A stretch of DNA of 64,000 nt from Lytechinus pictus (lineage: Eukaryota). Shown here in pieces: positions 27,673 through 52,110 of this stretch. The stretch spans positions 930,001-994,000 of the forward strand of contig NC_087252.1 in NCBI RefSeq assembly GCF_037042905.1. The letters run 5' to 3'. Within the stretch, counting starts at the first letter, position 1; each line of letters begins with the position of its first letter. The position numbers and the translations under genes were made by a program. The notes beneath the pieces were generated by a model. It worked only from the letters and a program-made list of their open reading frames with translations, had not been told where the DNA came from and did no database searches.

Positions 27673-27748
27673 ATGGCAACTACTCTTTATTACAAGTTCT
27701 TCATCGTCTCTTTCTTGTCATTACTATGGAGACCATGGTCACATTTAG
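27673..27748 (+). CDS. IgSF receptor exon 1: signal peptide MATTLYYKFFIVSFLSLLWRPWSHL
   Basis: Strong Kozak context accATGG, hydrophobic core, G|GTGAGT phase-1 donor that joins in frame to VIDAQQ of the next exon. Confidence 0.8.
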
Positions 27749-30700: not shown

Positions 30701-33700
30701 CATAGCACTTAATAACTGCAGGAGACCAGCTCAAAAAGAAATACATTGAACCCCACTTATAGTGACCACCAAAAGAAACACATAATGTGGCCTCTGTAGA
30801 CAGGTGGGTGCTATAGACAGGTTGTTATACACACAATATGCCTCAGAACTTGGGAATCGGTTTTTAGTGGTCATTACAGGCAGGTGGCTTCTATAAGACA
30901 GGTTCTTATATAAAAAATCTGCCTCCTTGAGAATTGGTTCTTGTGGTCACTATAAGCTGTTTTAGAGAGGTGGCTGCTAATGCAGGTTTGTCTATATTTT
31001 GTAATAAACTCATTATTTCTTTCCTCTAGTCCCTCCTGAGAATGTAAACATCGCTTACAACGCTGTCATCATCTCCGACGGAGGAACACTAACACTAGAT
31101 GAAGGCACCCCAAACACCATCACCTGCAAGAGCCTTGGAACAAGACCAGCCTCTGCGATCACATGGTACCTCGATGGGGTACAAGTGGCGTCCGGGATCG
31201 GTAGACCGGTGTTTACCCCGAACGACAACGACAGTCGGTTGCAGGACGCATCGAGTAGCATCATCATCCAGCCGTCAAGAGAACATCATGAGCAGGTTCT
31301 ACGTTGCCAGGCAACCACGTTTGGCATCAGCCGTGACGTCAGTATTAGGCTATCTGTTGATGGTATGTAGAATTCAGTGTTTATTAAATCTGGGGTGTAT
31401 TATGGAGCGATGTGGAGCGTTGTGGCCCAGTGGATTAGTCTTCTGACTTTGAAACAGAGGGTCGTGGTTTAGAATCCCAGCCATGGCGTAATTTCCTTCA
31501 GCAAGAAATTTATCCACATTGTGCTGCACTCAACCCAGGTGAGGTGAATGGGTACCCGGCAGGATTAATTCCGTGAATGCATGAGCGCTGAAAGGCAACT
31601 CGAGCTAAAGCCGGGGTAATAATAACAATGTGCCTCGGAATAGAATATTTCTAGATAGATGGCGCTATATAAATGCCTATTATTATCATTATTTCTTTGA
31701 AAAAGAAATAATGATTTATTATAATGTATTGGGCAATTCCGTGAAGTATTTAAATAGTAAATGGTGATTTTTTTACCTGATTGCCATCAAAGAAAGAATG
31801 AATGCTTGCAGGCAACCAGAGGACCAACGACTTGAAGGGATGGTCCGGACTGAAAGTATTTATAACTTAATAAATAGAGTAGAATTCACTGAGCAAAATG
31901 TCGAAAATTTTATCAAAATCGGATAACAAATAACAAAGTTATTGAATTTTAAAAGTTTAGCAATATTTTTTTTAAACAGTCGTCATGAATATTCATTAGG
32001 TGGGCTGATGATGTCACATCCCCACTTGTTCTTTTGTATTTTATTATATGAAATTAGGTTTATTCAATTTTTTCCCTCCAAGAACTAGAAAAATTGGTTT
32101 GACAACTGATTTAGTGCATTAGATATTTATTGCTGCAACTTATTTCATTATAAGGGAGACATATTATTCACACAAGTATGAAATAATGAAAAAAAATATG
32201 ATTTTATGTAATAACATAAGAAAACGAAAAGTGGGGATGTGACATCATCAGCTCACCTTATGAATATTCATGAAGACTGTTTTCACAAAATATTGCTAAA
32301 CTTTAAACTTCAATAACTTTATTATTTATTATCCGATTTTAATGAAATTTTCGGCATTTTGCTCAGTGAATTCTACTCTATGTAATAAGATATAAATATT
32401 TTCAGCCCGGACCATCCCTTTAAGGTCCTCTCTGAGTTACCTGATGAGGATTTAAATACTTTACCAATGGGCACTAGTGCACCAAATGGAAATCGAACCC
32501 GGGTCACTGGAATCCGAAATCCCCACTCTACCGACTGAGCTATTGCGCATCCTATTGGTACATTAAAAATGGGGGTCTGGTGACTGTTTCATGAACCTGT
32601 TCGTAAGTTAAGAGCAACTTTAAGAACGACTGGTGATCCTTTCTCGTGGTGGTACATGTATACACCAAAATATTCATTGGCAATGGTTTAGCAAGTAAGA
32701 AAGGTTCACCAATCGTTCTTTAAGTTGCTCTTAACTTTAATACGAACAGCTTTCAGTATGAAACACCCTCCAGGTGTACACATAGATTGATTAAATCGAA
32801 TTCCCCATTTACATGAATCTTGCTCTCAAATGCAATCAAGAAAATAAACCCTGAAAGAGATTGCTCAAAGCTTCACAAATTTGTCATCTCTTCCAATAAC
32901 CTTTAAGCATTTCCTTGGCAGCGAAAAGCTCAACATTTTTTTATACAAGGAATGGTTCTTGTTTGACTGGCACCAGGAAACATATAAATGAAATAATCTC
33001 TCTCTGGACCGAACAAGGAACATCTCACTAGGAAATGATATTTGACCTTCAATTGCAAAGCAAGAAAATAAATTACAAATGGGGGTTTTCTTAAGAGCCA
33101 AAAGAGAAGAGTAATAAAAACTATGAACTTGTGAAGTTGTATATCAAGTCAATACAACTAAACATTTAGGATCAAATACAATGTATGAGCTGCAAGTTTT
33201 TCTTAAAGTTGAAAAACATATTCTACTCTATATATGTATTTCTTGAAAAATGTCCTTCCTTAATTTCATAATTTATCAAGAGCTGCCGATTAGTAGGACT
33301 ATTCAGGGAAAAGTTACACTGAATAGGATTTTCCCCCTGAAATAGAAATAGGATTTTTGAAACTTAATGTTGATTTTTGGTATGTTTTTCAAAATTTTAA
33401 AGAAAACTAGGATTTTATGCTTGAAAATAGGATGAAAAGAAATGAACAATAATAAAGTTTTTTTTCACAATTATATTTGGCAGCTTTGCATTATCCATTA
33501 TTTCATATTTTTTCCCCGGCCTGTAAATCAGAGCAAGTAAAATGGTTTGAAAGCTAAGAATTTACTCTGTTCTACAAAGCCAAAGAAAATAACAAACTGT
33601 AACCTGTTGTTTTGAATTGAAGGATCTTATATGTTCCTAACTTGGTGATCTTTTGATTTTGTTGCTGTACCTGGGGCCCGTAACACAAAACTTAGCAATG

Positions 33701-35744
33701 ATCGTAGGACATTTTTCTACGATTTATTCCATTGATTACAATGTACAATCAATTGTGAAAATCAAGCGTACGATCAATTGCTAACCCTTGTGTTACAGGC
33801 CCCTGGTTGTTATCTAAATTCATAACATGGTAAAAAAGGACAGCATTGCGGCATTTCCCTTATGTTTACAAAGAGAAATTGAACAGTGGATGGGGGCGGC
33901 ACGCATGATGGTTCAAAAGAAGTAATACAGTTGTGATCAGAAGTTAGTGAACCCTGCCACAAAACACACTCCTTCATGCTGAGTGTTGAACGTAGACAAC
34001 AACAATACAATGTTTGGTGAACCCATATAAACAAACTTCATTGAATGTAATATATCATCACCTGACTTCACAATTGAATATCTAAAATATGGCAGAACTT
34101 GAACACTTTAAATATGTTCATTTTCTGATGGGGTTCACTACCTTTTGAGCAACACTGTACATGTACATGTCTTTGTATTGATCACAACTTGAAATTAGAT
34201 GTATTCAATAGGATTTATTGTTGAAACTTTGTCTAATCCCTTGTTATGATGAATCTGTTTTCATTGAATGTTGACATCCTTTTCAATTTTGTTTTGATTC
34301 TTTGTCTTCTCTTCCTTTCACACGTTTCTTTTCTTTGTTTCTTCTTCCTTTTTCCTTGTTCATTTGATTTATTGATGCATTTTTCTTACAATGGCTGTGA
34401 TTCAATAACATGATCATCTTCATCTTTGATGGAAGTAAAATTTGATAAGAGTTACATTAAATGGATAATCCTGGTCATAGCTTGTATAGGTTTCCATGAA
34501 TCAATGTACTGTACATGTACATGTATATGAATCATGAAGAGGTGTAAATATTCACATCTGAATGGTACACACTTTAAAACACAAGTAAGCACCGACAATA
34601 ACAATGGTCTGTAGACAACACACATTACTATTATCAATATGATTATTACCATCATCACCATCATCATCAACATCATCATCTTCATCATCATCATCTTCAC
34701 CACCATCATCATCATCATTGTCATCATCAATCGTCATCATCATCACTATCATCATCAACATCATCATCGTCATCATCCTTACCACCATCATCATCATTAT
34801 CATCATCGTCATCATCATCATCATCATCATTGTTATTGTTATCATTTTGTTGTTGTTGTTATTTTACTATTCCTTATATTTGACATCTCTTCTCTGGCTA
34901 GGTCCACCTGACCCACCGGTAATCAGTGGTATCCCTGACGCCATCATCATCATCGTCATCATCAATCATCATTATTATCATCATCGCATCATCATCATTA
35001 TTGTTATTATTATCATTTTGTTGTTGTTGTTATTTTACTATTCCTTATATTTGGCATCTCTTCTCTGACTAGGTCCACCCGACCCACCGGTAATCAGTGG
35101 TATCCCTGACACCATCGATGAAAACCAGCAAACCTCTATCACCTGTGAAGCCGACAATGGCCACCCATCCCCCTCCTTCCAGTGGTTCATTGGCAATAGG
35201 AACCTCAGCGCCGATGCAACGCTTCAGGTGTCTGCAGACGCCAACAACCGTATCGACGCCTTGAGCCAGCTGCGGTACCTGCCTCTGAGGGAGGATAACG
35301 GTCTGGCGCTGCAGTGTAATGTTATCCACAATCAGCTCTCACAGCCGATGAAAGTGATGAGTGATATCCTTGTTGTTAATTGTGAGTTGAATATTTTTTT
35401 TTTGGGGGGGGGTTGGGATTCGAGGGTGGTGGTGGTTGTAGGAAGGTTAGAGATGGTATCAATGAGAGTGCAAGTAGTTGTGTATTTTGTCGTAATAGTG
35501 ATGGGGATGGTAGTGGAAACTTGTTGATTTTTGAAGGTTTATGACAACATCGCCAGGTTCATTATGTCGAATTATTTTACCAGAGAGTCAAAATTATTGT
35601 TTTCTGAGAAATTAAAGTACATGTACCACGTTTAATATCAATTTGTTGTAAGAAAACTTGTTTGATAATAGTAATAGTGGTGACAGGGATGTTAGTGGAA
35701 ACTTTGGTGCGATTATTGAGACTGATGATAATGATATTGATATG

Positions 35745-35776
<32 letters not shown>

Positions 35777-38700
35777 GATGATGATAATAATAATGTGCTG
35801 ATTTTTCGGATTATTATGAAAGTGATGATGATAATTAGAAAACTTAAGATTATTATGAAAGTGAAGATGATGATGATGATTACTGATAACGATGACAAAA
35901 TATATTAATTTATGTACTTAGACGATGTTGATGATGATAATGATAACAAAATATATTACTATTATCTTCTTCGTATCCTTAGACTGTCCGACGACCGTTG
36001 AGGTCACCATCTGCCCTGAGGTTGAAGCGGGGTCATCAAAGGTCATGGTTTGTCGATCCGGGGCCAGCAATCCTGCGTCTAATCTAGTCTGGATACAAGG
36101 TATAACCCAGTTGCAACCCAGTCATTCATTTGAAGTATTAAATCAGGATGATGTTTACATGTAGTAAACTTTTTGTAAAGTATCCAAGACCTGTTCTTAG
36201 GTACCAAGTCATTTACGCAGGAATATATCATTTAGCACAAGAAAAGGTCACCAGTCGTGTTATGCATTAACTTACAAAACTGCTTCGGGAATGGTTCCCT
36301 TCTTTGACTGCGTTGAATTGGGGACACAACATTTGCTTTGGCAACAATTGCTCCAGGGTTTATTTCCTATAAGATAAAGGGTTAGGGAATAGGGTTGCAA
36401 TAGGGTTTTATGCTAGGTTTAGGATACGATATAGCATTAGATCCATGCCTCTTCCATGGCTGCCTCCCCCCCTCCATTAGCTCTGTGCGAATCAATCATT
36501 CCAGTAGCTTATCACAGAATATGTCTGTGTACAAATCTGATATTCCAAAGAGTATTTAAAGTTTGTCAGCTAAGATTGCACAACAATGACAAATATATGC
36601 CAACCAACCCCCCCCCCCCACACACACACATACATGAATACAATGACTTAAACAAAAAAACAAGACTAACAAGAGCTGAATGAAATAAAGCACTTCAAAC
36701 TTAATTTTAATGCCACTTGTAAGAAATATGAAACCATAATTAACTCAAAATAAACAGCCTCTTTTAGTACAATGCACCCTTGAATATAAGCCACTTCAAG
36801 AACACTTTATAAAATCGGAAAAAAACATTAATGAAGGTTGATATCGATAATTGGAGAAATAATCAGTGATTTTGATTTAGTTATCTTCCTACAACAATGA
36901 AGTGGAAATAAATACCAATAAAGTAAACGTAAGTATAAATGAAAACTAATTCAAGGTATACTGTACAAAAAGTTAAAACCAATACTAGAGGTCGATACTG
37001 GTAATTGGATAAAATTATTTCACAAAATGACTTTGTTGCACAGATTCAGTTATCTTTCTCCAACAATGAAGTGAAAATAAATACCAATAAAGTAAACGTA
37101 AGTATAAATAAAAACAAATTCAAGGTAAAAAAAAACCAGAACAAATTATTGAGGTCGATACTAGAAATTGGTTTATCCAACTTATAAATTGGTAATTTGG
37201 AAGAAGTTATCTTTCTGCAATGAAGTTGACAATTTTTAATAATCTCTTCAACTCAGATGCCTCTTACCATTCATACTCTACGCGTCATTCAGCAGATCTT
37301 CACCAATATCTTCCAAAAACTAAAATTACCCCAAATTCTCTACATTGTAGAGGAATCAAGCTGTGGAATGATTTAAATAATGACATTAAACAAAGTAAAA
37401 CCCTAAATAAGTTTTAAAAACTTTTGAAAGTTGAATTTTTCTCTCAGTATAAAAACTCCTGCCAATAGCACACTGTAGGTCACTATGATTTATAATTATT
37501 ACTTCTAGTTTGCTTGTTTCTTTATTTCCCCCTATATTAGCCCATTGTTTCTTTTCTATTTTTTTTAAAATTGTATTTACATGTTATTTGTTGTTTACTC
37601 TTTATGTATTTCTTACATTGTTTGTATTTAATTGTATCATGGTGGTGCCCCACCCACAAGTTTTTTTAAATGAAAACTTCCAGGGGCTCCCAATCCCATG
37701 TTTTTATCTAATTTGTATATACATTTACCTGTATTTTTATGATTGATTGATTGAAATTAATTTTGAATTGAATTGAATTGACAATATCCATTTATATCAA
37801 TGATAGCATTGCCTAAAAACCATAAGCTGATTATTGCTTATATTACACACATTAATCATCTAACAATATACATATCTTTTAATATTACTGTACTGCAGAC
37901 AGGTTTATGATGATGGGGGAGGGGGGGTTATCTAAAAATGACTTTCATTATGTCCAGTAGATGAAAGTATAGGGGTAATACACACAGTTGTATATGTAGA
38001 GGTGGTTTCACTATTACCAGCAAGTTACTTTCATTATCTCTTGAGCCGTTTTCTTCTTTTTACTATTCATTTTTTATTATTTTAGGTTTTTTTTTAATCC
38101 GTCCCCTCTTGTGCTACTTGTGGCCACATTGTGTGTCATTTATCATTTCCATGTTTTCAGAACGACTGAAAAAAGGGAAAAAATAAAAGAAAATGAAGTT
38201 ACTTCATAATTGGTGCGCTGCCAAGAGAATAATAGGAAATTGGTCATCCACATTCACAAAGCTTTTATTTCCTGTTATTATTTAATAAAAACAATAGTAC
38301 AAAAATACATTATTCACTATTGCTGATCTCAGGAATAAGAAGAGGTTATAGAGAATAATTATTGTCGCACATGAAGAAGTAATAATACCATAATAGCGCT
38401 TGAACATCATATTTATGTATAGTGTGTGGCAAAAATAGTTAATAATGACTGATCGCCAAACAAAAAGATATAAAAATGAAGAAGAGTTATTAAGATATTA
38501 CACTAATACATGTTTGTATGGTTATACTTTTTTATGTGTAGGTGTTGAATACGGGAATTAAGAATGTTTCATCATATCTTGGTGTCAGTGCAAGAACACC
38601 CTTAGCAAAGCATTTTCATGCACCACATCGGTACAGAAACACCCTTACGCAATGCACTTATGCGTGCTGCTAAAGATGTTTTTGCGCGCATGCAATGTGC

Positions 38701-41700
38701 AAAAGTGTGGTGTTAAGGATGTTCTTGCACTGACACAACAATATTTATGTATAGTATGTTGCAAAAATAGTCAATAAAAATTAATTAAGTAAAAAGTTAC
38801 AGGATATTAGACTACACTCTACATGGTTTTACTGTTATATTGTGCAGGTGTTGAAACGATTAACGAGCCAAACGCCTTGCAGACTCACTTCGAGGAAAGT
38901 TCCGAACCCCAAGGCTCCCAGACAACTCTGACCTACATGAGAAACTTCACCAAACAAGACTACAGGCAGAGCTTCAAGTGTTGTACCACCCTCAGCCCAT
39001 CATGTGATTCTACCGTCTGCTCAGAGCCTTGCGTTCCTAATGTCAAATGTGAGTACAATCAGGGTCCAAATGCACAATATCTATAACGAGTTTGCTATCA
39101 GCCAATGACTGGGTTACTAATAATGTGCACACTGTATATCTTATTATAAATGCCAGATTATTATTAATATTATTCTTATCATTTTCCCCGCTCAGATGCA
39201 CCGGAAGAACCCAATATCTCCAGGAACATGCCGGCCCGTCAAGTCAGGGAGGGCACCGCAGACCTAGAGTTCACCTGTCAGGCCGAAGGCAACCCCAGAC
39301 CGGCCCTGACCTGGGTGATGGCCAATAACGAAGGTTTGATGCTTGACCAGTTGACCAAGGAGGATGGATCACAGCTACTCAGGTTCAGAGAGGTTAGACG
39401 ACATCATGCGGGGGTTTACAAGTGCATCGCTAATAACAACATTCCACCAAGGAGTAGCAATCAGAATCAACTTATTGTGCTTTGTAAGTGGACAAACTGT
39501 GATGGGGTGACAGAATAGAAATGAAAGGGGTACTTGGGGCTGTAAGTGGACAGTGTGTATTGGTGTGTGTAATCGATTTTTTTTCAGGCATGTCTCGAGA
39601 TATTATTTACTTCTGGGATCGACATTTAATGTCATCGACCGAAGACATAATAAGTGTTCGAACTTCCATAATCTGCATCAATTTGTGAAATTCCCACCTA
39701 GCATGGGTGACAGGTGCATGCCTCAATACCCAGTGTTAAAACCTTGTATCTCAGACTTTAAAAAAAATATAAGGGCAGTCTTTTCGAAATATAGCCACGG
39801 CTGCAACCTAATATTTCCTTAAAACAAGTCTTCTTAATTCCTGGAGAGAACTCTTTCTAGGTAAAATGTCGTTGCTACTTATGTCAAAAATCTATTCAAA
39901 AGCAAGCTCTTTCTAGCCATCCTGAATTATTTGGGAAGACATCCCTGTGAATGATTTTGGTATTTGATTATCACCAGATTTATTATCTGTGTTTATATAA
40001 ATGTTTCCAATTGTTCCTGTCTGTCCATTCCACTGTGCAACATGGGGTAGACATGTGACCACACATTATTGAGATAGGGACTAGGGGGTAGGACAGATGG
40101 TTATTTCTAATAGATATTATCACACAAATATTAATGAAATTATTACCGTTACTCCACGATATCATTTGATTCTCTTTTCAGTTCCACCTACCATTCAGAA
40201 CAAGGCTAACAATCGGACAACCGCAAACGAGGGCAAGAATGCCACGTTGTCCTGTGTCGTCAAGGGCAACCCGAGCATTGAGGTGAACTGGGAGAGACTC
40301 GGCAACCACTCGGATGAGCTCTGGGACCGGACGCTGGTGGTCAATACCGTGGTGAATAGCGATTACGAGAGCGTGGTGAGGAGCACGTTGAGTATTCTGA
40401 ATGTACGGCCGGACGTTGATCACGGAAATTACAGGTGTACGGCAAATAACACGATTGGAATAGATGAAGCTGTCATCAACCTCAGCGGAACATGTAAGTC
40501 TGATCACTCTGACGAATAGGGTATTGATAGAATAGCGCCACCTACAGTATCTAGGAATGATCTATTTCGAGGTGCAATATTATTGTTATCCTGGTATTAT
40601 TTCGAGCTGCCTTTCAGCACTCAGTGCATTCAAGGAATTCATCCTGCCTGGTACCAATCTACTTTAATTTATCGAAAGTTCATATTTGAGCTCAGAAATG
40701 TACTTTTGATAAATTAAAAGCAAATTATTATTATTTCTATTGGTCTATAGGTTCTTACTCTCATTTTTCAGTCAAAGGGTTGTAGGTTTGAATACCAGCC
40801 ATGGCATGTTTTCTTTCAGCAAAAATAAAAATTACCCGTATTGTGCTGCACTCAACCCAGATTCTTTTAGGTACATATAGATGGTGCTACATGTACATAA
40901 ATGCCTTGATTATTGTTATAATATTATTATGATTATTAATGTCAATTCTTTACTTTCTATTGTTTAAACAGCAAAACCAGAGCCTCCGACATCATTGCGG
41001 GTCGATGCAAGCCGGACCACATCTCATTCATTCATGGCTTACTGGCAGCCAGGCTACGACGGAGGAGTAGAACAATCATACGTCATAATGTACTGTCTGA
41101 ATGACACCCAAATGGACTGCAAGAATATATTTGGTGAGCCATTGTCCCATTCAGACTCGAGCAACCCAAATGAAATGGGGGGGGGGGTAACACCATACAG
41201 GGTTGGACACCCTAGCAGACCTTAATGTTATAAGAGTTGATTTTGTAGGATTAATCTTCTTTTGGAGGAATAATTACATTTGAAGGGGTACTCCAGGCTG
41301 AAAATAATATGATTTGAACAGATAAAGTAAAATCAGACAAACAAATTACTAAACATCTCATCAAAATCAAACAAGGAATAACAAACAGCTTCAATTCAGG
41401 ATAGGAATTAATTCTCTTTTCAATCATGGGGCTAACATTGAACTAAAATGTTATAAATTTTAATACTGATTAAAGTATATGCCAATTTCTAGTTCATCAG
41501 TCTTGATTTGTAGGATCATATTTTGGGGGAGGACAAACAAGACTAACGTTGATACTTTATTTTTTTTATTTTTATTATTTACCTTTTATTTATCTAGGAA
41601 TCAAAGAACCAGAATATCTTTTGGAGGAACTACAAGATTTTCGCTGGTACACCATCATAGTCTATGCAGAGAATACCAATGGTAGAAGCATTGGGAGCAG

Positions 41701-44700
41701 CAAATTTGCAGTATCTACTGCACGTAAGTATCAATTTTTAAGTACCACATTTAGAGTTAGTTTTTAGGCAAAAAAAAACAGTGTTCTAATATTTACTTTA
41801 CTAAGTTCAAAATTTACTGCGTAGTGTAGAAAAAAAAGGTAATTCACATTTGGATGAAGATTTATGAACCAAGGTTCTTCTTTGTCTTCGTTATTAATTT
41901 TGTGGATATTTTTATATATGCGTAGCTTTTTCGCTAATATCATAAATATGACCTTTCAAAGCTAAAGCTTTGTTGAGAAATTCATATCATGATTTCCATA
42001 ATACCTCATTTTTCATTTATTTTTAATAAAACACAAAAAATAACTGTGCATTTCACCATTCCATTTGTAATCAGTTGTTTTTTCTTTCTTTTTCTATTTT
42101 AATGTTTAGCTCTACCTCCAAGTGGTTATGGTGAGTAAAACCAGGAATCATATTTTTCCCCAAACTTATTCTAAGATCAATTTACAGCATATTCATAAGT
42201 ACTTGTTGGAAGCCATTTATATCACTTAATCCTATCTAGACTTCAATTATTGAAATTAAATTGCCAAATAAATGTTAAAATGTTAACACAAAGAAAATAT
42301 TTCTGTATATCAATAAATTCATTTTTTAGATCAAGGATTAAATGGTAAAACAGCATGCCATGCATATGTCAGTGTACTAATGCAAAAATTCAAGGCACGA
42401 CAGCCCATTTCTATGTGATAAAATTCAATAAATGCTTTGATATGACAAGCTATTGCAATCTGGAACCAGGTATTCCCTATGTGAATCACAGAATTCAATA
42501 TTCAACAGGTTAACCCTTTGCCTACTAGAACCAGGTGATCCCTGCACAAAGCCTATTGAAATCACAAAATGAGGCATTCAACCAGTTAATTTAAACCTTT
42601 ATCCTGTGCAGGTATCCTAGTGACCAATGAGAATGGGCTAATCACCTTGACCTCTGACCCGGCCATTGAATTGCCTGATGGGATCGGATTCAAGATCGAG
42701 ACCAGTGCAGAGGGTCACTGTAATCCAAAGAGCCGTGCTTACCCTGCTGATGGCGCTCCGGTACAGAGACCTAGTGATCAAGTCATCATGGTTTCAAGCT
42801 TTGGCAGAGGATTGTGCAGTGTACAGGAAACCGTCAATGGTGAGTTTTGAGAACTTGAGTTGAATGCAAACTATGAATGCATTTTCTAATTGAGAACTTG
42901 AGGCGACTGCAAACTATGAATGCATTTTCTAATTGAGAACCTAAATTGAATGTATTGAATTCAAATTAAGAATGCATTTTTTTATTTCAGAACTTGGGTT
43001 AAATTCATACTACATGCATGAACGCATTTCACAATGAGAACTTGAATTGAATGCAAACTATAAATGCATTTTCAAATTCAAGATCTTGGGTTGACTGCAT
43101 ACTAGGAATTTATTTTCATATTGAAAACTTGAGTCGACTGCAAACTATGAATGCATTTTCTAATTGAGAACTTGAGTTGAATGTATTGACATAATACGCA
43201 GGGCAGTTAGGTTCCTGTGTTATAAGCTTGTGGGGTATTTTTTAAACAGAGGAAACAAGTAATGGTCTGCTCCTGGGTCTCCTCAAATTTGCCCAAATTT
43301 TCAACCCTCAAATTTGCACCCCTAAATGGCGTAATCTTCATAACCAAATTAGCAACCCTAAATGGCGTGAAGAGAGAAAAAAGGCAACCCTAATAGGCGA
43401 TTTACCAGCGAATGGTGCTGAAATGCATCCCTTTTTGCATAAGACGTCGACGACGCCTGATTGCCTGAAACGGGACGCTTTTTCTGGAAGCGGGCGCATA
43501 GCAGGCCATGTGGAGAAAAAATTACCTATATTATTATTTTTAATCAATGATTTGAGAATACTCTTTCTCTGTTTCTTTATTACTTTATTTGCTCCCCTCC
43601 CTTTGGCTGGTGCACCTTGAGCATCTCAAACAAGATGGATATGGCGCCTTAAAAATTGTGTTCATTATTATTACATTTGTTTCATTTTTTGATACTTGCA
43701 AGTCTAAATACAGGTAATAGAGCACAATCGTCTGTAATGTTTGCGATCATTGGGATAGTTGTATTCATGAAACAAAAAAAAATTAACTATTATTTTGTAT
43801 TAATGACTTAAGTACATGTATACTCTCTCTGCTCTTTTATTATTTTATTTGCTCTCCCTTTCACTTGTGCACCTTGAGCATTTCTAACGAGATGGGTATA
43901 AGCGCCTAATAAATTGCATTTATTATATTATTATTGTTATTATTATTGTTATTATCATTATTATTGTCATTATTATTATTATCATCATTATTACTATTAC
44001 TATTATTATTGTTTTTAGTATTATATTTGTTTAATTTTTGACAGTTGCCAGTCTAAACACGGGTAATAGAGGACAATCAACTGTAACGTTTGCGATCATT
44101 GGAATAGTTGTATTCATCGCTTTGGTTTTCCTCGTTTTATTACTTGTCAGGAGAAATCATATGAGGAAAAATGAATGTAAGTCTAATCTTTCCTATTCTT
44201 TTAATATTTGTGACCTTCCATCCCAGAACTAACAATAAGTCCCCCAAAATGAATTTTGATATCTTAATCTAGTTTGAAAAGGCACAGCCATAGCTTTATA
44301 ATGATATATAATTTGTCAAAATTGATCAACAATAACCCACTAAAATATATTAAAGTTGAATGCAATAGAAACAAAGCGAGCGCTTCAGAAAATAAGGAGA
44401 AAACAACGTTTGAAGATTGTGTTCACTCAAGTATGAAATGTGCACACTGTGCAATTTCAATTATTTCAGAAATATGTGAACATTGTTTGACATTTTTTAT
44501 ATTATTAGTGATGATTGTAAAACCAAATAAAGAAATGATTCAGACTTTGTGTTCGGTCAGTTTGGCATCTAAAGTGCTCAAATTTTTATTTGATGACATT
44601 AAGCCTATTTTATTCAATTTCTTGTTTCAAGCTAGAAGGTATCAAGACATTTGAGAATCTGAGTAAAGTATTATGTCATCAATATGAATAATGAGAAGCA

Positions 44701-47700
44701 AAAAAATATAGTGATATAACACTTCCTTGAGTTTTAAGATATTCTTTGTGATCTATACACGACTGTTTTATTGTGTAATTTAAATTATCTTTATTGTGAC
44801 TCATTATATTCAATTTTCATTTGATTTCCTTTTTATCTCCTTCACTGACCAATAACAGTAAAGCTTCCAAAATCATCTATTAGGTAAGATTATGACATTC
44901 TCTCTTATTTTCTTTAAATTCTTATGGTGACAATATAATTTATCATTAGGAGTGGGCTATAAATGGGGGTTTTTGTGTTCCTTTTACCATATCTCAACAT
45001 GAAATGACAATATTTGTTGTCCAAGAAAAAAGTGTGCCGGGCAAAAATCCAAAATGGCCCCGAGACAAAAAATATTGTCAATTCATGTTGAGATACATTA
45101 CAAGGAATAAAAAAACTGTTGCCATATTGAAATGACAAAAAAGTATTTTTGACCCATGTGTAGCCCACTCCTTTTATCATGAAGAATATGCATTTTCTAA
45201 ATTATAGTTACTTTATCGAGGTAGAACAATGTAAAAATTGACCTTTTCATACTAAAAATGAAATTTATATATATCTTAAAACTATATAGTATATAATCAA
45301 TAACTAAATATGGATTTTAAACTTCATACATTTCACTGCCCCTTTTCATAAAGATTTGATTCATGATGTACATGTATTGTTTATTTTGGTACTATTTATA
45401 CTCAATAATTGAATATCAATTTTAAATTGTATACTAATTCAAAATAAATTTGTCACAATTCCATTAGATCTGGGCCTGAGGGTCAGTCTTCTATTACAGC
45501 AAGACTGCTTCAATTCCCTTTTCATAAAAAAATGAAAAATGTTATAGTACACGTTTTGGTACATGTACTATGTATTCTTAGTAAAATAAAAATAATATAG
45601 AAATAATAATAGTATTGATCGTGATGATGATGGTGATGGTGGTGGTGATGATGATGATGGTGGTGATGATGATGGTGATGATGATGATGATGGTGGGGAT
45701 GATGATGATGGTGTCGATGATGCTGATGATGATGGTGTTGATGATGATGGTGGTGATGATGATGACGATGATGATGATGTTATTGATATATACATTTTTT
45801 TTAACCAAAGTTTTAAAGTGCTGTTTATAATATATATAAAATGAAAAAAAAGGAAATAACATGAGAACTGAATTTGTCAATCCGTTAGATCTGGACCTGA
45901 GGGTCAGCCAACGAACGGTCAGTCTAGGTCATTCCTCAGTGGTGGGTATTTTGCATGTACGTGTCAACGGCTCTCCTGCACTATTCATTAGTATCCTGTA
46001 TGGTAACACACTAATCAACTTATTAACACATTGACTCTATTAAAGGGGAATCCAACCCAAATCAAATGTTGATTTTATCGGAAGAATAAGAATCAGAAAA
46101 GGACATGGGTGAAAGTTTCGACAAAATCTGACAAACTGTGAGAAAGTTGTGGATTTTTAAAAGATGTAAAAATAGGTAATCGCTAAACCCATGCAGACTT
46201 CAAATGAGCCGCATTGGTGATGTCATAGTGATGTAAGGCAAGGACTATTCTCCCATTTACTCCATTACATAAACTTGTTAAATAGTAGGGTTTTTTTCTT
46301 GAGGATATAGCATATTCTACATTTGTTATATGTGGATTACTGCCCCAGGGGAATAGGAACTTATCCTTTATAATTAAGTATATGGCCTATGGGAAAGTTG
46401 TCCTTCCCACTTGTCATAATTTACTTACCCAGTTTCCAATTTGAAATTTACATAATTTTAGGGATCTCAAATTTTAAAAAGTCAAAACTTTCTAATTGCT
46501 TGTCTGATTTTTTTCAAACTTTCACCATTCTTATATCACTTATTTTTTCCTTTCCCACAAAACATTTCATGACCAAGGAAGGATTCCCCTTTAAGCCTTT
46601 ATGAAGTTTCGGTAATTCTGAAGATCTTTATTGTATGTGGGGTATGTGTGTGTTACTGAGATAATGAACGTTTAGGTAACTTTTCAAAAGTCTGTGCAGC
46701 GTCCTTTTGGCAGGAATCCATTATAACTATCCTGCTATAAGGGTGCTTTGTGTCTCTCTTGTACTTCTTTGGTAGTTCCAGTCTATATGAAATTCTTGAC
46801 TCTCCTCACGTTCTTTCTCTATTTCTTGATCTCCAAGATTGTCACTCTGGCCCGGATTCTCAAAAGTGGTTTCATTTTTACCGTGGTATACAACCATGGA
46901 CTATGCAGATTTTTTTTTTTATGTTTTATTGAAAGAAATCAAGGTAATTACATATTTACAAGATTGAATGATTCAAAAGTGCAAATAATAACAATTTATT
47001 AAAAGGCATTCTTGTATTATCGTGCTTCAATTTGACATCCTTTGCCAAAAGCGCGCATTTGTAATTGGACTTTGCGTAGTGTATGTGATGAAGTAAGCGT
47101 AATAATGTTTAAAAAAATCTGCATATTCCATGGTTTTGTACCATGGTACAATTGAAACCTTTTTTGAGAATACGGATATATACTAGTATATCTCAAAATG
47201 TCATTGATAAAGTGATCTTTGATGTCCAAAGAATCAAATGGTTTTTGTATAAAAAAATCTCTCGTATTTCTCTGCATTTATAGTTCACAAGAAATTCTAA
47301 AAAAGTCTTTGCTATTAGACAATGCCCTTTCGCTATTTCTAGACTTATGTCTCAATCTAGGCTGTCTAGCACAAAACTTAGCATTTATTTTAGATCAAAT
47401 TTATATGACTTACATGTATTGCATTGCCCACAATATACAATCAATCATAGAAATTAATCATAAAATCAATTGTCACATTCTGTGTTACAGGGTCTGGGTG
47501 TTTTAATATCTCCCTATCATGTAGTGTTACTTAATGTCTCTCAATACGTTAGGGGAAGCTGTGCATTACAGGGGCCCGTTTCATAAACCTTGTTACGGTA
47601 ATAAATTTGCAATAACAGTTAAAAGCTACCGAAATCTTTCAATCTGATTGGTCGACAGTAAATTTGTTATTTTAATTTTGCATTTGAAAAGTAACAAGTC

Positions 47701-50700
47701 TTAATGAAATGGGACCTAGATTAATTGGAAAAAAAAACTTTTGATTAAACACAAACTACACAATAAATGGGAAGGATTGGATGAAAGAATCATCTTTCGC
47801 CGGGTTCCCAGCCCATCAGGGAAAATTATTTGACTTTTTCCAGTCAGGGAAAAATCAGAAAATTGATAGAAAATACCTCAAATCGGGGAAAAATGCCTAT
47901 AATGAGGGAAAAATCAGGGAATTTTGATCAGCCCAAAAGTAGAAAGCATGGTAGTCAGTCCGACTCTGTTATATTTTGTTGTATATCAACCTCTTTCTGT
48001 ATAAGGTGAGGAAAGGATGACTGTATGGGGAGAAGGGAGGCCATTACATGCCTGTGTAAATAGTACCAATATAGTTTCACATTATTGTTTTTATACCAAA
48101 AATACATGTAATTCACTGCAACAACTTAGAAAACATGCAAAACTGGGAATGGGTTTTAATAATTGTCAGGGAATTTTGTTTTCTTGAAAAGCTGGGAACC
48201 CTGTTTAGTAATCAGGGACAAAATAAAATTTGAATCACATTCTGATTGTTTCTGCATTGAGAATTTAAATTGAATTGAAATAAATGCATACAAACATAAA
48301 TGTAGATATTAAAATGAACACATAATGACATCATCCTAACACAAAAGCAAAGCAAAAAAAAAACTACTATATGTACCCATCAGTGTGCTTGCACTGGAAA
48401 CCAGCAACCATGCTCTATATGCTATAAAGTTTAGCATGACTCCATCTTCTTGGTTACACACATGCATCTTGCCATGTTATAGTCTATTAATAATGCACTA
48501 TTTACCAGGTAATATTGCACCGTTAAACATGCAATAGTGCATCCTAGTGTACAATATTGCACCCTACCATTCGATAGTAGAAGTTATTTGCACACCCTCC
48601 TACTCCCATCCTCAAATCACCCATTTCCCTCACGAACACTTGTTTTTCAAGTCACTGCCCCCATCACTCCCACCCCCCACTTCCTCGGGACAAAATAATG
48701 AGTGCCTCTCATATCAGGGATGAAGTGGATGCCGGCCTCAAGGCCGTATTTTTTCTGACCTCGGCCTTAGCCTCCGACCGAATCACATTTTACAGAGTCT
48801 ATGGGACTTTCTCCAGTGCCCTCGTGACTCTGGCCTCAACTACTGCCCTGCTGTCATTGTGAATTTGTGAACAAGTTTTGCTTAAAGCTAACCGAGTTAT
48901 ATGCACTTTTATATACAAAACATTGTTATTGTCCATTAGAATAGCACTGCTTGAGCCTATCTATATTGCACTTGGAATTGTATGTTTGCGAAGTCAGTGT
49001 ACGTGTATTTGTATGCAGCATGATCAACATTTATTGAAAAAATATCCTTATGAAGCAATGACCAACAACCAATTGTATTTGTTGGTGTTATTAAAAAGTG
49101 CAATTTTTGTTGCAAGAGATGTTTATGCAAAAAAATAAAATAAATATAATGCCCTGTACAGTTTTGTGCACATGCACTTTTAGTATACTTGTATGTATGA
49201 TTTATATTCCATGTAACATACATGTGATAAATTGCCTGTTGTGAAGAGTGACAGACAGACAGACAGATATATATACAGACAGACAGACAGTCAGACAGAC
49301 AGACAGACAGACATATAGATAGATAGATAGACAGACAGACACACACACAGACACACACACAGACAGACAGACATATAGATAGATAGATAGATAGACACAC
49401 AGACAGAGAAACAGACTGACTGACAGACATGTAGATAGATAGATAGATAGATACATTGTAGATATATAGACATACAGACTGACAAACAGACAGAGAAACA
49501 TATAGATGAAAAGGTTTTCCACATTGAAGATCTGCACATCAACTGAATGGTTGGGTGTTTCACAAATTGCTTGCTTGTAGCTGATTAGTTTCATCAGAGG
49601 ATTTGAACTCCCTAATTTACAAGAATGCACTGAAATATTGCATTTGGTATTGATGACAAACTTTGTGAAATATTTACCTGGACCAACTTGTATAGGCAAG
49701 CATGATATCCTGTTTGCCTCTCTACATCCAGGGAAGTGAAAGCTTTTGAAGGATCAAGAAATTGTCTGCATGGAATCAAAATCTTCACTGTCAATATATA
49801 CCCACCCCTGCCTGTATAAATGTTTGTGTTCAAGTTTGTTAAAAAAATGAATAAAACAAAACAAGTTAGTTCGCTACATGTAGATCTGACGCAGTGAATA
49901 TAATTGCACATGAAGCTTTGCATCACGTTCAAGAAGTCATTTACATTTTGAGTTTTAATCCAACTTTAAGGAGGTTCTCTTCCATAGAAATTAGTAAACT
50001 AAAGATATTGATACATTGTAAGGGGAGGGGGATCCGTGAACTGGTTTCATATTCTAACATATCAGAATCCAACAAGACATACATTTTGTTTTACCCTTTT
50101 AGGGCATCAATCTGAAATAGATCCATAGAATTAAGTTTTTTTATGATGATAGTGATGAAAATGTGGATCTGTTTCAAGCTGATTGCACAAAAAATAATGA
50201 TTTAGTGCTTAAAATGTACTGGAAATAGCAGTCCAATTTAAATCCATACGTGTGTTTCATTAATCTCCCCAGGATATTAATTCAATGATTAATCAGTCAC
50301 AGTTGCATGTATGTACATGTATCATGCAAATGTCTGCGCGATTTTTTTTTCTGTTTTTTTTTAAATAAAAAATGAAGTTCAGGATCTTTTTTTCAAATAA
50401 GACCTTTAATGTTTGTCCACGTTTTTATTTCACAATATTTTTTTTTTGGACAGATAATCCAGTATATGATGATGTAGCCAAAGAAGACTTCAGAAAATCA
50501 CAACATGAAGGGAGAATGGTAAGTAAACCTAAATGAATTGAATTTCTATATTCTACAAAATGTAAATGAAATGCAATCATCAGCATTCAAAGTCTGTTTT
50601 TACCACTTTCTTGGGTTAGATACATTGTAGATTACTTCCTTGATGGTTCTCCATACTTTCCTGGCATTTGGGTTGATGTGAATGGTGTTTGACACCTTTC

Positions 50701-51565
50701 CGTCTTGTATGATAGTTTACCCCCCATGGTCGTTGGAGGTGTCCCATGCGTAGTCCTCCCAACAACTATGAAATTTAGTATTCTTAATATATACATGTAA
50801 ACAGGAAATGCATGATGAATATGTCACCCGTTTTTGGAGAGGAAGATCTTTTAATTTTAATAATTAACCTTTATCATTTTCCTCTTCATCCATGTGGCTC
50901 TTCTTGTCCGAATACTTGTATGTATTTATATATTTTTTGATAAGGCAAATAAATATCAGTAGTGACAGAATATGCTTCATAACAAAATGTACAAGATTTA
51001 AAGTTCAGATTCATGAAACTTTAGCATGTGCATGAGTGATACAGATATATTACACTAAATTCCAAGGGAAGGGAGGCCTTGGATGTCCTCAAGCAGCCTC
51101 TATAAACCTGTGCATTATTTGTTTTATTGTTGTTTCTGTAAAGGTAAATGAAGATGATTTAATCTATGCTTCATAACAAAATGTACAAGATTTGAAGTTC
51201 AGATTCATGCATGTGTGATACAGATATATTACACTTAATTCCAAGGGAAGGGAGGCCTTGGATGCCCTCAAGCAGCTGCTATAAACCTGTGCATTATTTG
51301 TTTTATTGTTACTTCACAGGTAAATGAAGATGGTTTAATCTATGCTGAGGTGGCTCACATCAAGAGTCATCCCAATGACCAACCGCCGATCAGAACGGAG
51401 GAAGCAACCATCTATGCATCCCTGGACTTCAACAAGATGGATGATGTGAAGAAACAGCAGAAGCAACCCGTTGTAGACTCCAACAGGAATGCCGAAGACT
51501 GCCCTGAGAAAGAAGCGCTTATCTACGAGAACGTCACGCCTCAAGGATTACCCGTCTCGCCTTGA
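27673..51565 (+). CDS. Nephrin/echinoid-like type I Ig-superfamily receptor (SP-7xIg-FN3-2Cys module-TM-tyrosine motif tail), 18 coding exons, ~1125 aa
   Basis: Hand-spliced join(27673-27748,28161-28502,29770-30111,31030-31362,35073-35381,35983-36099,38848-39048,39196-39483,40182-40493,40972-41133,41598-41723,42110-42130,42612-42839,44045-44176,44859-44883,45889-45941,50454-50518,51320-51565). All introns GT..AG, phases compatible, total 3378 nt, open to TGA. Ig motifs (C..W..D.G.Y.C; NPP/NPA C2-set), FN3 WQPGYDGG, hydrophobic TM followed by RR. Confidence 0.88.
28161..28502 (+). CDS. IgSF receptor exon 2: Ig1 (V-set-like)
   Basis: Polypyrimidine tract + cag acceptor; VKEGETVTLVC..LSW..LTIRDVTLEDDNEYQC; gtgagt donor. 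Confidence 0.93.
28569..29129. mobile_element. TTAA-target MITE, family C
   Basis: AGGGGAATCCAA ... GATTCCCCT|ttaa; colinear with 46044-46590. Confidence 0.8.
29770..30111 (+). CDS. IgSF receptor exon 3: Ig2 (C2-set)
   Basis: tctag acceptor; VPP..YTITC..ANPPADLEW..VTCEATHPAL..LDVQ; gtacgt donor; 342 nt, phase 1-1. Confidence 0.92.
31030..31362 (+). CDS. IgSF receptor exon 4: Ig3 (C2-set)
   Basis: cctctag acceptor; VPPENV..TITC..TRPASAITWY..LRCQA..LSVD; gtatgt donor; 333 nt. Confidence 0.92.
31414..31692 (+). mobile_element. tRNA-derived SINE, full length
   Basis: A box TGGCCCAGTGG, degenerate B box GGTTTAGAATCC, core CACTCAACCCAGGTG..AATGGGTACC, (ATT)n tail; homologous copies elsewhere in the window. 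Confidence 0.8.
31750..32551 (-). mobile_element. Second tRNA-derived SINE interrupted by a TTAA MITE
   Basis: Minus-strand A box TAGCTCAGTCGGTAGAG and B box GGGTTCGATTTCC at about 32485-32545; the body resumes on the other side of the MITE. Confidence 0.55.
31836..32419. mobile_element. TTAA-target (Kolobok-like) MITE, near-perfect palindrome
   Basis: ttga|AGGGATGGTCCGGACTGAAA ... TTTCAGCCCGGACCATCCCT|ttaa; inverted arms about 200 nt. Confidence 0.8.
33675..33802. mobile_element. Small Harbinger-like MITE (related ends at about 12474-12748, 46849-47177, 47572-47717)
   Basis: ctg|GGGCCCGTAACACAAAACTTAGC ... GCTAACCCTTGTGTTACAGGCCC|ctg. Confidence 0.65.
34638..35012. repeat. (ATC)n microsatellite tracts
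   Basis: Imperfect ATC/ATT runs either side of the duplicated exon-5 start. Confidence 0.9.
35073..35381 (+). CDS. IgSF receptor exon 5: Ig4 (C2-set)
   Basis: GPPDPPVISG..SITCEADNGHPSPSFQWF..DNGLALQCNV; gtgagt donor; 309 nt. Confidence 0.92.
35983..36099 (+). CDS. IgSF receptor exon 6: Ig5 N-half
   Basis: ccttag acceptor; YCPTTV..MVCRSGASNPASNLVW; G|GTATAA donor; 117 nt. Confidence 0.85.
37230..37780 (+). mobile_element. 3' end of CR1/L2-clade LINE (ORF2 C-terminus, 3' UTR, (ATTGA)n tail)
   Basis: HSYSTR..L..KT..S..RGIKLWNDL..IK..TLNKF is the typical CR1/L2-group ORF2 C-terminal motif. Confidence 0.7.
38582..38736. mobile_element. Small MITE
   Basis: GTGTCAGTGCAAGAACACCCTTAGCA / TGTTAAGGATGTTCTTGCACTGACAC. 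Confidence 0.65.
38848..39048 (+). CDS. IgSF receptor exon 7: Ig5 C-half, Cys-rich
   Basis: tgcag acceptor; TLTYMRNFTKQDYRQSFKCC..PNVK; gtgagt donor; 201 nt. Confidence 0.85.
39196..39483 (+). CDS. IgSF receptor exon 8: Ig6 (I-set)
   Basis: YAPEEP..FTCQAEGNPRPALTW..HAGVYKCIANN; gtaagt donor; 288 nt. Confidence 0.93.
39553..39734 (-). mobile_element. 7SL-like-head SINE, diverged copy 2 (intron 8)
   Basis: Minus strand ACTGGGTATTGAGGCATGCACCTGTCACCCATGCTAGGTGGGAA..CAAATTGATGC..GTTCGAAC..GACATTAAATGTCGATCCCAGAAGTAAATAAT..(CA)n, colinear with copy 1. Confidence 0.7.
40182..40493 (+). CDS. IgSF receptor exon 9: Ig7 (I-set)
   Basis: FPPTI..ATLSCVVKGNPSIEVNW..DHGNYRCTANNTIG; gtaagt donor; 312 nt. 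Confidence 0.93.
40530..40930. mobile_element. Two partial tRNA-SINE copies in opposite orientation (about 40530-40655 minus, 40745-40930 plus)
   Basis: cgagctgcctttcagc..ggtacc and ccagccatggc..tgtgctgcactcaacccag match the family. Confidence 0.6.
40972..41133 (+). CDS. IgSF receptor exon 10: FN3 N-half
   Basis: SKPEPPTSL..YWQPGYDGGVEQSYVIMY, a nephrin/sidestep-type FN3 motif; 162 nt. Confidence 0.9.
41598..41723 (+). CDS. IgSF receptor exon 11: FN3 C-half
   Basis: YLLEELQDFRWYTIIVYAENTNGRS (FN3 L.P...Y...V.A.N..G pattern); 126 nt. Confidence 0.9.
42110..42130 (+). CDS. IgSF receptor exon 12: 21-nt microexon (PLPPSGY)
   Basis: Long pyrimidine tract + tttag acceptor, G|GTGAGT donor, frame-preserving. 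Confidence 0.7.
42612..42839 (+). CDS. IgSF receptor exon 13: membrane-proximal ~76 aa module with 2 Cys
   Basis: tgcag acceptor, open frame with coding-like GC content, G|GTGAGT donor; 228 nt. Confidence 0.8.
42848..43188 (+). repeat. ~43-bp minisatellite, ~8 units
   Basis: TGAGAACTTGAGTTGAATGCAAACTATGAATGCATTTTCTAAT repeated. Confidence 0.85.
44045..44176 (+). CDS. IgSF receptor exon 14: transmembrane segment
   Basis: VTFAIIGIVVFIALVFLVLLLV followed by RRNHMRK stop-transfer; gtaagt donor. Confidence 0.92.
44859..44883 (+). CDS. IgSF receptor exon 15: 25-nt cytoplasmic microexon (LKLPKSSIR)
   Basis: acag acceptor, AG|GTAAGA donor; supplies the phase 1 to 2 change required by the next exon. 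Confidence 0.7.
45615..45785. repeat. (GAT/GGT)n microsatellite
   Basis: Direct reading. Confidence 0.92.
45889..45941 (+). CDS. IgSF receptor exon 16: cytoplasmic (SGPEGQPTNGQSRSFLS)
   Basis: gttag acceptor, G|GTGGGT donor, phase 2 to 1 fits both neighbours. Confidence 0.68.
46044..46590. mobile_element. TTAA-target MITE, family C, copy 2
   Basis: ttaa|AGGGGAATCC ... GGATTCCCCT|ttaa. Confidence 0.8.
49247..49505. repeat. (GACA/GATA)n compound microsatellite
   Basis: Direct reading. Confidence 0.92.
50454..50518 (+). CDS. IgSF receptor exon 17: cytoplasmic, NPVYDDV motif
   Basis: Poly-T + gacag acceptor; DNPVYDDVAKEDFRKSQHEGRM; gtaagt donor, phase 0. Confidence 0.82.
51320..51565 (+). CDS. 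IgSF receptor exon 18: terminal exon with ITIM-like motifs
   Basis: cacag acceptor; VNEDGLIYAEV..TIYASL..LIYENV..VSP*. Confidence 0.88.
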   Translation, partial: VNEDGLIYAEVAHIKSHPNDQPPIRTEEATIYASLDFNKMDDVKKQQKQPVVDSNRNAEDCPEKEALIYENVTPQGLPVSP

Positions 51566-51590
51566 CGTTAAGCCTCCATTAATGACATGA

Positions 51591-51596
51591 AATAAA
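51591..51596 (+). promoter_or_regulatory. Candidate proximal polyadenylation signal AATAAA (distal candidate at 58333-58338)
   Basis: AATAAA 25 nt after the stop codon; cannot tell which signal is used. Confidence 0.3.
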
Positions 51597-52110
51597 ATGC
51601 CACAGTTAGCTGATCTTTGCACAGTGGCTCTTGCCAAACAAGCGATGTTAATACCATCTAATCTATAGAATGAAACTTCTTCCTGTAGCTATCCTCCAGA
51701 GTTTTAGCATCAGGGTCGTAAATAGGACAAGCTTACATGTACCATTCATACATTGTACTGTCTAATGTTGTGACAAGATTGTTTCCTTGTGGATATGGGA
51801 TTCTTACTTTCGCAATGACTTGATCAAAAGATAGCGGTGCTGGCTGCAAATCTATAGAAACTTATATTCTTCCATGAATGATTGAAGAATGCAGCTGAAA
51901 CAATGGATGTTCTCTGTGTACATGTACCTTCTGGTTTTTGCATGGTTCCATCTTTAGATCAAAGTCAACTCGGTAAGGACTATTGGATTAAGCTATTGAC
52001 GGAAGGAGTTACAGGTTTTATATGCTACAGTAGACCCTTGCTATTGCTTTTTTTGTTTACTTGCCAACAGAAACATGTAATCTGAATAAAAAGCAAAGAG
52101 GATTCATGAA

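What the first reader, a model, noticed from the sequence alone, without database searches (positions are those of the whole stretch)
34790..51346. Five of 17 splice acceptors of the receptor are tandemly duplicated with the first bases of their exon
Seen: upstream truncated copies of intron end + exon start precede exon 5 (copy 34902 vs real 35073), exon 7 (38542 vs 38848), TM exon 14 (43696 vs 44045), exon 16 (45468 vs 45889) and exon 18 (51144 vs 51320). Four keep an AG; the TM copy has AG changed to AC. Each AG-retaining copy runs into an in-frame stop. I saw no comparable exon-containing duplication across donors. Inference: either a mutational process focused on 3' splice sites, repeated unequal exchange between diverged alleles or paralogues, or a selected bank of decoy acceptors producing truncated isoforms or NMD-based dosage control.
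Basis: partly seen in the sequence, partly recalled or inferred. Interest (0 to 1): 0.72.

Follow-up and report, generated by a model that had tools for sequence, protein, structure and literature searches.

The report
Duplicated splice acceptors in urchin receptor
Five exon starts of a sea-urchin cell-surface receptor gene, each with its splice signal, are copied head to tail into the intron before them, and the RNA examined skips the three copies that could be checked, so these are likely silent leftovers of a repeat type already known from lancelets as "mirages", here unusually dense and all on the acceptor side.

Summary
Observation confirmed. In a sea-urchin Ig7-FN3-TM receptor with ITIM-like tail motifs (window = RefSeq XP_063959387/8), 5 of 18 acceptors and 0 of 17 donors carry a junction-crossing tandem copy, 77-95% identical, so of different ages. 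RNA reads join only the real acceptors of exons 14, 16 and 18 (31, 42, 32 reads; none listed to a copy). Elsewhere in the genome the same copies occur at about 1.5% of predicted splice sites with no acceptor bias: 7 of 521 acceptors, 9 of 522 donors. They match the lancelet "mirages" (PMC3087553, PMC3902484). What stays unusual is gene-level concentration: six times the background density of short duplications, 5 of 9 over acceptors (0.86 expected, P about 0.001, gene chosen after the fact); a kinase gene shows the same clustering at both exon ends. Best reading: silent, microhomology-joined duplications in a duplication-prone gene; not an assembly artefact, not a selected decoy bank. The scan noted such repeats before on other DNA of this genome.

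The parts
27673..51565 (+). Host gene, 18 coding exons: signal/leader, Ig V-set, Ig C2/I-set domains, FN3-like region, TM exon 14, tail with three ITIM-like motifs (LIYAEV, TIYASL, LIYENV)
   Evidence: Joined exons translate letter for letter to P0008 and P0009; Pfam per exon; motif pattern recalled, positions
34756..35116 (+). Exon 5 acceptor duplication: copy 34756-34945 (AG before 34902, about 40 exon nt), real acceptor 35073; junction falls in a (CAT)n tract
   Evidence: 161/169 identical; junction; X1 contig joins exon 4 to the real site
38403..38863 (+). Exon 7 acceptor duplication: copy 38403-38561 (AG before 38542), real acceptor 38848
   Evidence: 107/126 identical; copy covered by organism-B DNA contigs at about 90% identity
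38582..38736 (.). MITE-like palindromic insertion between the two exon 7 copies, 17-nt perfect terminal inverted repeat
   Evidence: the repeat finder, listed no pair; one related end in L254
43516..44117 (+). Exon 14 (TM) acceptor duplication: copy 43516-43768, AG changed to AC before 43696, about 73 exon nt; real acceptor 44045
   Evidence: 209/245 identical; 31 RNA reads to the real site, none listed to the copy
45359..45907 (+). Exon 16 acceptor duplication: copy to 45486 (AG before 45468), real acceptor 45889; (GAT)n tract between them
   Evidence: 89/115 identical; 42 RNA reads to the real site; depth 0 in 45321-45621 in 3 of 3 runs
50971..51346 (+). Exon 18 (last exon) acceptor duplication: copy 50971-51170 (AAG before 51144, 27 exon nt), real CAG before 51320; 6-nt microhomology TATGCT at the junction
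   Evidence: 172/182 identical; junction; 32 RNA reads to the real site, none listed to the copy
35884..35971 (+). Short intron-only duplication just before the exon 6 acceptor (not counted among the five)
   Evidence: 31/36 identical

Best explanation
The five upstream copies are tandem duplications of intron end plus exon start that the RNA examined splices past at exons 14, 16 and 18, and they are likely neutral leftovers ("mirages") made by microhomology-guided DNA repair or replication slippage in a duplication-prone gene. Shown: copies of different ages, short microhomology at the youngest junctions, use of the real acceptor, the same copies at both exon ends elsewhere in the genome. Inferred: a duplication that crosses one exon edge leaves the real exon intact and puts the spare signal in the intron, so it survives; the spliceosome keeps the acceptor that is followed by the full exon (exon definition, established knowledge, not tested here); the all-acceptor pattern is mostly a chance run in a gene with many events, found by scanning many genes.
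For: Ages differ (95, 95, 85, 85, 77% identity) and the exon 7 copy is in a second organism whose introns differ by about 10%, so events recurred over a long time. Junction microhomology TATGCT at exon 18, CATC in a (CAT)n tract at exon 5, CAT at exon 14. RNA: 13 joints listed, none to a copy; 31, 42, 32 reads to real acceptors. Background without polarity: 5 of 300 acceptors and 5 of 301 donors in kinase/P450 loci after removing one mis-predicted exon and one microsatellite, 0 of 187 and 2 of 187 in a related Ig cluster, 2 and 2 of 34 in neighbouring genes. Masked intron points have such a copy on a given side in 2.3-3.0% (61 and 81 of 2687). Events: 5 acceptor and 7 donor among 32 non-transposon duplications. 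The gene has 8 events in 23.9 kb against 32 in 603 kb (Poisson p 5e-5). Lancelet mirages occur at both boundaries and do not disturb splicing (PMC3087553, PMC3902484, passages).
Against: Even given nine units in this gene, five over acceptors is rare (0.86 expected; P 6e-4, 1.2e-3 for either end). A second hot gene (kinase, L083) has 5 of 5 events on exon edges (2.0 expected, p 0.004), so random placement does not describe hot genes well. The whole background shows a mild edge excess (12 of 32 against 8.0, p 0.064 strict; 10.5, p 0.33 loose). The paralogue pair has a weak, independent remnant at the same exon 5 acceptor (29/39; 0 of 642 null pairings). RNA depth is low, from one study of unknown tissue, and NMD could hide use of the exon 16 copy; exons 5 and 7 were not properly tested in RNA. 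Background splice sites are my own predictions, not annotation.
Confidence: 0.62

Rival explanations
1. A gene-specific mutational process aims duplications at exon edges. In a very polymorphic genome exons are the islands of homology between alleles; repair or exchange would start in the exon, run into diverged intron sequence, let go and re-anneal at a microhomology, leaving a tandem copy at the edge. Fork direction or strand polarity would set acceptor versus donor per gene. The products would still be silent.
For: 5 of 9 at acceptors here; 5 of 5 at edges in L083; old remnant at the same exon in the paralogues; none of 34 non-transposon duplications of 50 nt or more is above 96% identical, as expected if copies start from two alleles; two same-species records of this protein differ at 29 residues.
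Against: Without L083 the background has no edge excess (7 of 27 against 6.0, p 0.39). Exon-containing copies stay recognisable longer because one copy is conserved, which inflates edge counts. Both hot genes were chosen after the fact. 0 of 187 acceptors in a related Ig cluster.
Confidence: 0.25
2. Some copies are used but leave no trace: where the exon begins with GT, splicing to the upstream AG would rebuild a donor and the piece up to the real AG would be removed in a second step (recursive site, or a nascent intron of the Rogers type).
For: 3 of 4 GT-starting exons are duplicated against 2 of 14 others (p 0.044); the rebuilt donor at exon 18 scores 4.5 and at exon 7 3.0, against 3.3-8.0 for real donors. 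A duplication can make a working intron in one step (PMC3265369, abstract).
Against: Post hoc test; the rebuilt donor at exon 5 scores -1.0; only 1 of 6 background acceptor duplications begins with GT, against 89 of 389 predicted exons; no intermediate listed in rRNA-depleted RNA (low depth).
Confidence: 0.06
3. A selected bank of decoy acceptors makes truncated or NMD-targeted isoforms that tune this receptor.
For: Three copies score about as well as real acceptors (7.1, 6.4, 7.0 against 6.9, 7.8, 8.9); all four AG-keeping copies reach a stop.
Against: No RNA joint to the copies of exons 14, 16, 18, and the exon 18 stop is in the last exon, where junction-dependent NMD would not hide it (NMD rule from established knowledge); the exon 14 copy and the paralogue remnant lost the AG; stops are expected in AT-rich intron; no shorter isoform among the 5 members of the protein cluster.
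Confidence: 0.04
4. Assembly artefact from merged haplotypes.
For: The two youngest pairs differ by only about 5%; they were not checked against genomic reads.
Against: Three pairs differ by 15-23%; one has an inserted MITE-like element and is in organism-B DNA; copies end inside exons at microhomologies.
Confidence: 0.03

Closest known systems
Lancelet 'mirages' (Adh3, globins BflGb6 and BflGb9, troponin C, PGBD5): Ebner et al. 2010, PMC3087553, and PMC3902484 (passages read); the original Adh3 paper is known to me only through these two
   Same: Tandem copies of an intron-exon boundary, units of 100-400 nt, many keeping AG/GT, mRNA spliced at the authentic site; BflGb6 copies an acceptor and BflGb9 has a single extra copy, as here.
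   Different: Sea urchin, not lancelet; five separate two-copy events in one gene, all at acceptors, old and imperfect; length variation between haplotypes not tested.
Human F7 intron 7 37-bp VNTR with silent 5' pseudo-sites (PMC1557585, abstract read)
   Same: Repeat whose unit spans an exon-intron boundary; spare sites stay silent.
   Different: Donor side, many near-identical short units, one site only.
Intron gain by tandem genomic duplication (Rogers model; PMC3265369, abstract read)
   Same: A duplication across AG|GT could define a new removable piece; three of the five exons begin with GT.
   Different: Here the duplication crosses an existing acceptor and only lengthens an old intron; no new exon or intron is seen in RNA.

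Membership tests
Mirage (tandem duplication of an exon-intron boundary) | Head-to-tail copy that spans the boundary | tested here: met
   5 of 18 acceptors
Mirage (tandem duplication of an exon-intron boundary) | Many but not all copies keep the splice signal | tested here: met
   4 of 5 keep AG
Mirage (tandem duplication of an exon-intron boundary) | mRNA uses the authentic site | tested here: met
   Exons 14, 16, 18 in 3 RNA runs of one study; exon 5 in one contig; exon 7 only through the RefSeq models
Mirage (tandem duplication of an exon-intron boundary) | Copy number varies between haplotypes (minisatellite-like instability) | not tested
   No same-species genomic reads were laid on the copies; each event has two copies here
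Regulated alternative 3' splice site / NMD switch | Junction reads to the upstream AG | tested here: not met
   None listed for 3 of 5 sites, limit 3 reads per run; NMD-blocked RNA not available
Recursive splice site (AG|GT ratchet point) | Acceptor followed at once by a usable donor | tested here: inconclusive
   Rebuilt donor score 4.5 (exon 18), 3.0 (exon 7), -1.0 (exon 5), own matrix
Recursive splice site (AG|GT ratchet point) | Splicing intermediates or lariats at the site | not testable with these tools
   Read depth of 5-15 junction reads per run is too low

The most novel reading that the evidence does not exclude
A minority of sea-urchin genes are hot spots of an exon-edge-targeted duplication process with gene-specific polarity (acceptor-only here, both ends in a kinase gene), driven by repair between alleles whose introns have diverged; it would steadily renew intron ends, seed spare splice sites, and give a natural in-genome assay of how the spliceosome chooses between near-identical acceptors.
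Probability: 0.2. Interest if true: 0.6.

Novelty: new member of a known kind. Interest (0 to 1): 0.3.

Why it matters
As it stands it extends lancelet mirages to a sea-urchin receptor and gives a first rough rate (about 1.5% of splice sites, both ends alike). Five natural pairs of near-identical acceptors in one gene, one 95% identical with equal score, make a ready test of exon definition against first-AG scanning. If gene-level edge targeting holds, it would be an undescribed mutational bias behind intron-end turnover and intron gain; my five answered paper searches listed no genome-wide count of mirages or of their clustering by gene, but the library lacks most subscription journals.

Tried and rejected
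First read lay (likeness 85) was swamped by transposon reads, so joints at exons 5-7 could not be read; the tool also skipped the repeat at 34624-35045. No indexed holder was on record as RNA ('no RNA holder listed'); RNA came from runs added by species label. Position effect: intron duplication rate does not track distance to contig end (Spearman -0.06, p 0.70, 46 kinase regions). Family effect: rejected (0 of 187 acceptors in the Ig cluster; 1 weak shared remnant among 12 acceptors, 0 of 11 donors in each paralogue). A donor copy at exon 13 (score 95) proved to be the intronic 43-nt array plus chance matches. Rows dropped: L109 5227/5280 (a donor-duplication copy mis-predicted as exon), L062 (microsatellite), two within-exon repeats in the Ig cluster, one microsatellite exon in the neighbourhood, this gene's 10 exons among the 44 predicted neighbours; one kept neighbour acceptor (offset 993) may be a whole-exon copy. 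The probe test missed L083 donor 4257 and L061 acceptor 1253, seen, so background rates are slightly low. Transposon filter compared only with about 2 Mb of fetched DNA. The hydrophobic 54-residue read-through of the exon 5 copy is explained by the (CAT)n/(ATT)n tract. Gao and Lynch 2009 was not held. ABC and sugar-transporter loci were not used for counts, and a planned further sample of genes was not obtained. No structure, complex or paper supplement was used.

Full report
Gene. The window is G000:C8:930001-994000 of an 812-Mb genome. Eighteen coding exons at 27673-51565 translate letter for letter to P0008 and P0009, RefSeq 'nephrin-like' isoforms of Lytechinus pictus: Ig V-set, C2-set and I-set domains, an FN3-like part, one TM exon (and sequence), and three tail motifs of ITIM pattern (pattern recalled). 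Orthologues exist in L. variegatus and S. purpuratus; two close paralogues lie at C8 28.35 and 38.45 Mb.

Observation. A symmetric probe test found upstream junction-crossing copies at 5 of 18 acceptors and none at 17 donors; unrelated pairings never reached the cut-off (0 of 900, 0 of 903). Copies are 161/169, 107/126, 209/245, 89/115 and 172/182 identical for exons 5, 7, 14, 16, 18; four keep AG and run into stops at 35066, 38559, 45598, 51174; the exon 14 copy has AC. Each copy stops 16-73 nt into the exon. Junctions show microhomology at the younger events (TATGCT at exon 18, CATC at a (CAT)n tract at exon 5, CAT at exon 14). A MITE-like element with a 17-nt terminal inverted repeat sits between the exon 7 copies (one search listed no pair).

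Real DNA, different ages. DNA contigs of a second organism (run X7) cover 38293-38663 and 38400-38732 with 38 and 36 other letters, so the exon 7 copy is shared with it. With about 10% intron difference between the organisms, the 95% pairs are likely younger and the 77-85% pairs older than the split (inference). The two young pairs were not checked against genomic reads.

Use in RNA. Three rRNA-depleted runs of one study, about 6% of each read, gave 13 listed joints over 42612-51640; none ends at a copy. Real acceptors: exon 14, 8+12+11 reads; exon 16, 12+20+10; exon 18, 15+12+5. Depth is 0 in 45321-45621 in all three runs and 0.19, 0.01, 0 in 43515-43815. A joint needs 3 reads to be listed, tissue is unknown, the animals differ from the assembly, and NMD could hide the exon 16 form. 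For exon 5 only one contig joining exon 4 to the real site is on hand; exon 7 was not readable.

Baseline. I predicted exons with a model trained on HMM-supported kinase and P450 exons (these are predictions, not annotation). In those loci 6 of 300 acceptors had an upstream copy (5 after removing a mis-predicted exon) and 5 of 301 donors a downstream copy. A related Ig cluster gave 0 of 187 and 2 of 187; neighbouring genes 2 and 2 of 34. Total 7 of 521 against 9 of 522 (p 0.80); this gene against the acceptor total, p 1.2e-5. Masked intron points carry such a copy in 2.3-3.0% per side in kinase introns, 1.1% in the Ig cluster, and 2.7% in this gene outside the five units. Counting events: 32 non-transposon duplications in 603 kb of 81 regions, 5 over acceptors and 7 over donors against 4.0 and 4.0 expected (p 0.064; loose rule 10.5 expected, p 0.33). 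So there is no general 3' bias.

What is unusual. This gene has 8 events in 23.9 kb, six times background (p 5e-5), and 5 of 9 units cross acceptors (0.86 expected; P 6e-4, or 1.2e-3 for either end). One of 81 background regions is as hot: a kinase gene with 5 of 5 events on exon edges, 2 acceptors and 3 donors (p 0.004); without it the background shows no edge excess (7 of 27 against 6.0). Both paralogues share a weak older remnant at the exon 5 acceptor, with AG lost (29/39; 0 of 642 null pairings). Both hot genes were picked after the fact, and exon-containing copies stay visible longer, so these numbers hint at, but do not show, edge targeting. With thousands of multi-exon genes and a hot gene in roughly every 80 regions, a one-sided run of five is expected now and then (rough inference).

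Mechanism. Most likely (0.62): short tandem duplications arise often in this genome through microhomology-guided repair or slippage; those crossing one exon edge leave the exon whole, the spare signal lies in the intron and is ignored, and the copy decays. Rivals: gene-specific edge-targeted process, for example aborted repair between diverged alleles (0.25); hidden recursive use where exons start with GT (0.06; 3 of 4 GT-starting exons against 2 of 14, but 1 of 6 in background); selected decoys (0.04); artefact (0.03).

Known. [quoted passage not shown] Human F7 has silent repeated donors (PMC1557585, abstract); a duplication can create an intron (PMC3265369, abstract). The term came to me from earlier scan notes, which list eight similar cases elsewhere in this genome; I checked the papers, not those loci. 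Searches listed no genome-wide survey.

Verdict. Real, a new member of a known kind, probably silent. Interest 0.3; the open point is gene-level clustering and polarity (probability 0.2, interest 0.6 if true).

Noticed in passing
window:45941 and 45956: Exon 16 has two donors 15 nt apart, used about equally (25 and 27 reads); the long form adds GGYFAY before NPVY and both forms are also recorded in Strongylocentrotus (P0004, P0012), a conserved tyrosine-motif switch in the receptor tail.
   Followed up: partly
P0009 versus P0011: Two same-species records differ at 29 residues, clustered in the V domain and the last Ig domain; at 16 of them P0011 equals the congener's residue. Could be old allelic lineages, as in recognition receptors, or simple changes on this haplotype.
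   Followed up: partly
L083, L252, L253 (G000:C6 about 7.25-7.27 Mb): Kinase gene with tandem duplications over at least two acceptors and four donors, several multi-copy.
   Followed up: yes
L192-L202 (G000:C8 12.03-12.14 Mb) and L012-L023, L184-L191: Cluster of giant Ig receptors built from repeated V-C2-C2-C2-I exon cassettes; about 80 Ig exons in 100 kb ahead of one FN3/TM end.
   Followed up: no
L004-L011: The two close paralogues, 10 Mb apart, are 98% identical over the intron before exon 5 yet differ at the exon 2 acceptor; patchy conversion is likely. They have a different, tyrosine-rich tail (P0007).
   Followed up: partly
window:52109-52513: Three decayed 133-nt tandem units downstream of the stop codon, probably in the 3' UTR.
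   Followed up: no
window:36874-37171, 42847-43189, 30798-30952: Further intronic tandem duplications of this gene that cross no splice site.
   Followed up: yes
G000:C7 28.96-29.01 Mb: About 11 near-identical intronless kinase copies in tandem, 4.0-4.3 kb apart.
   Followed up: no
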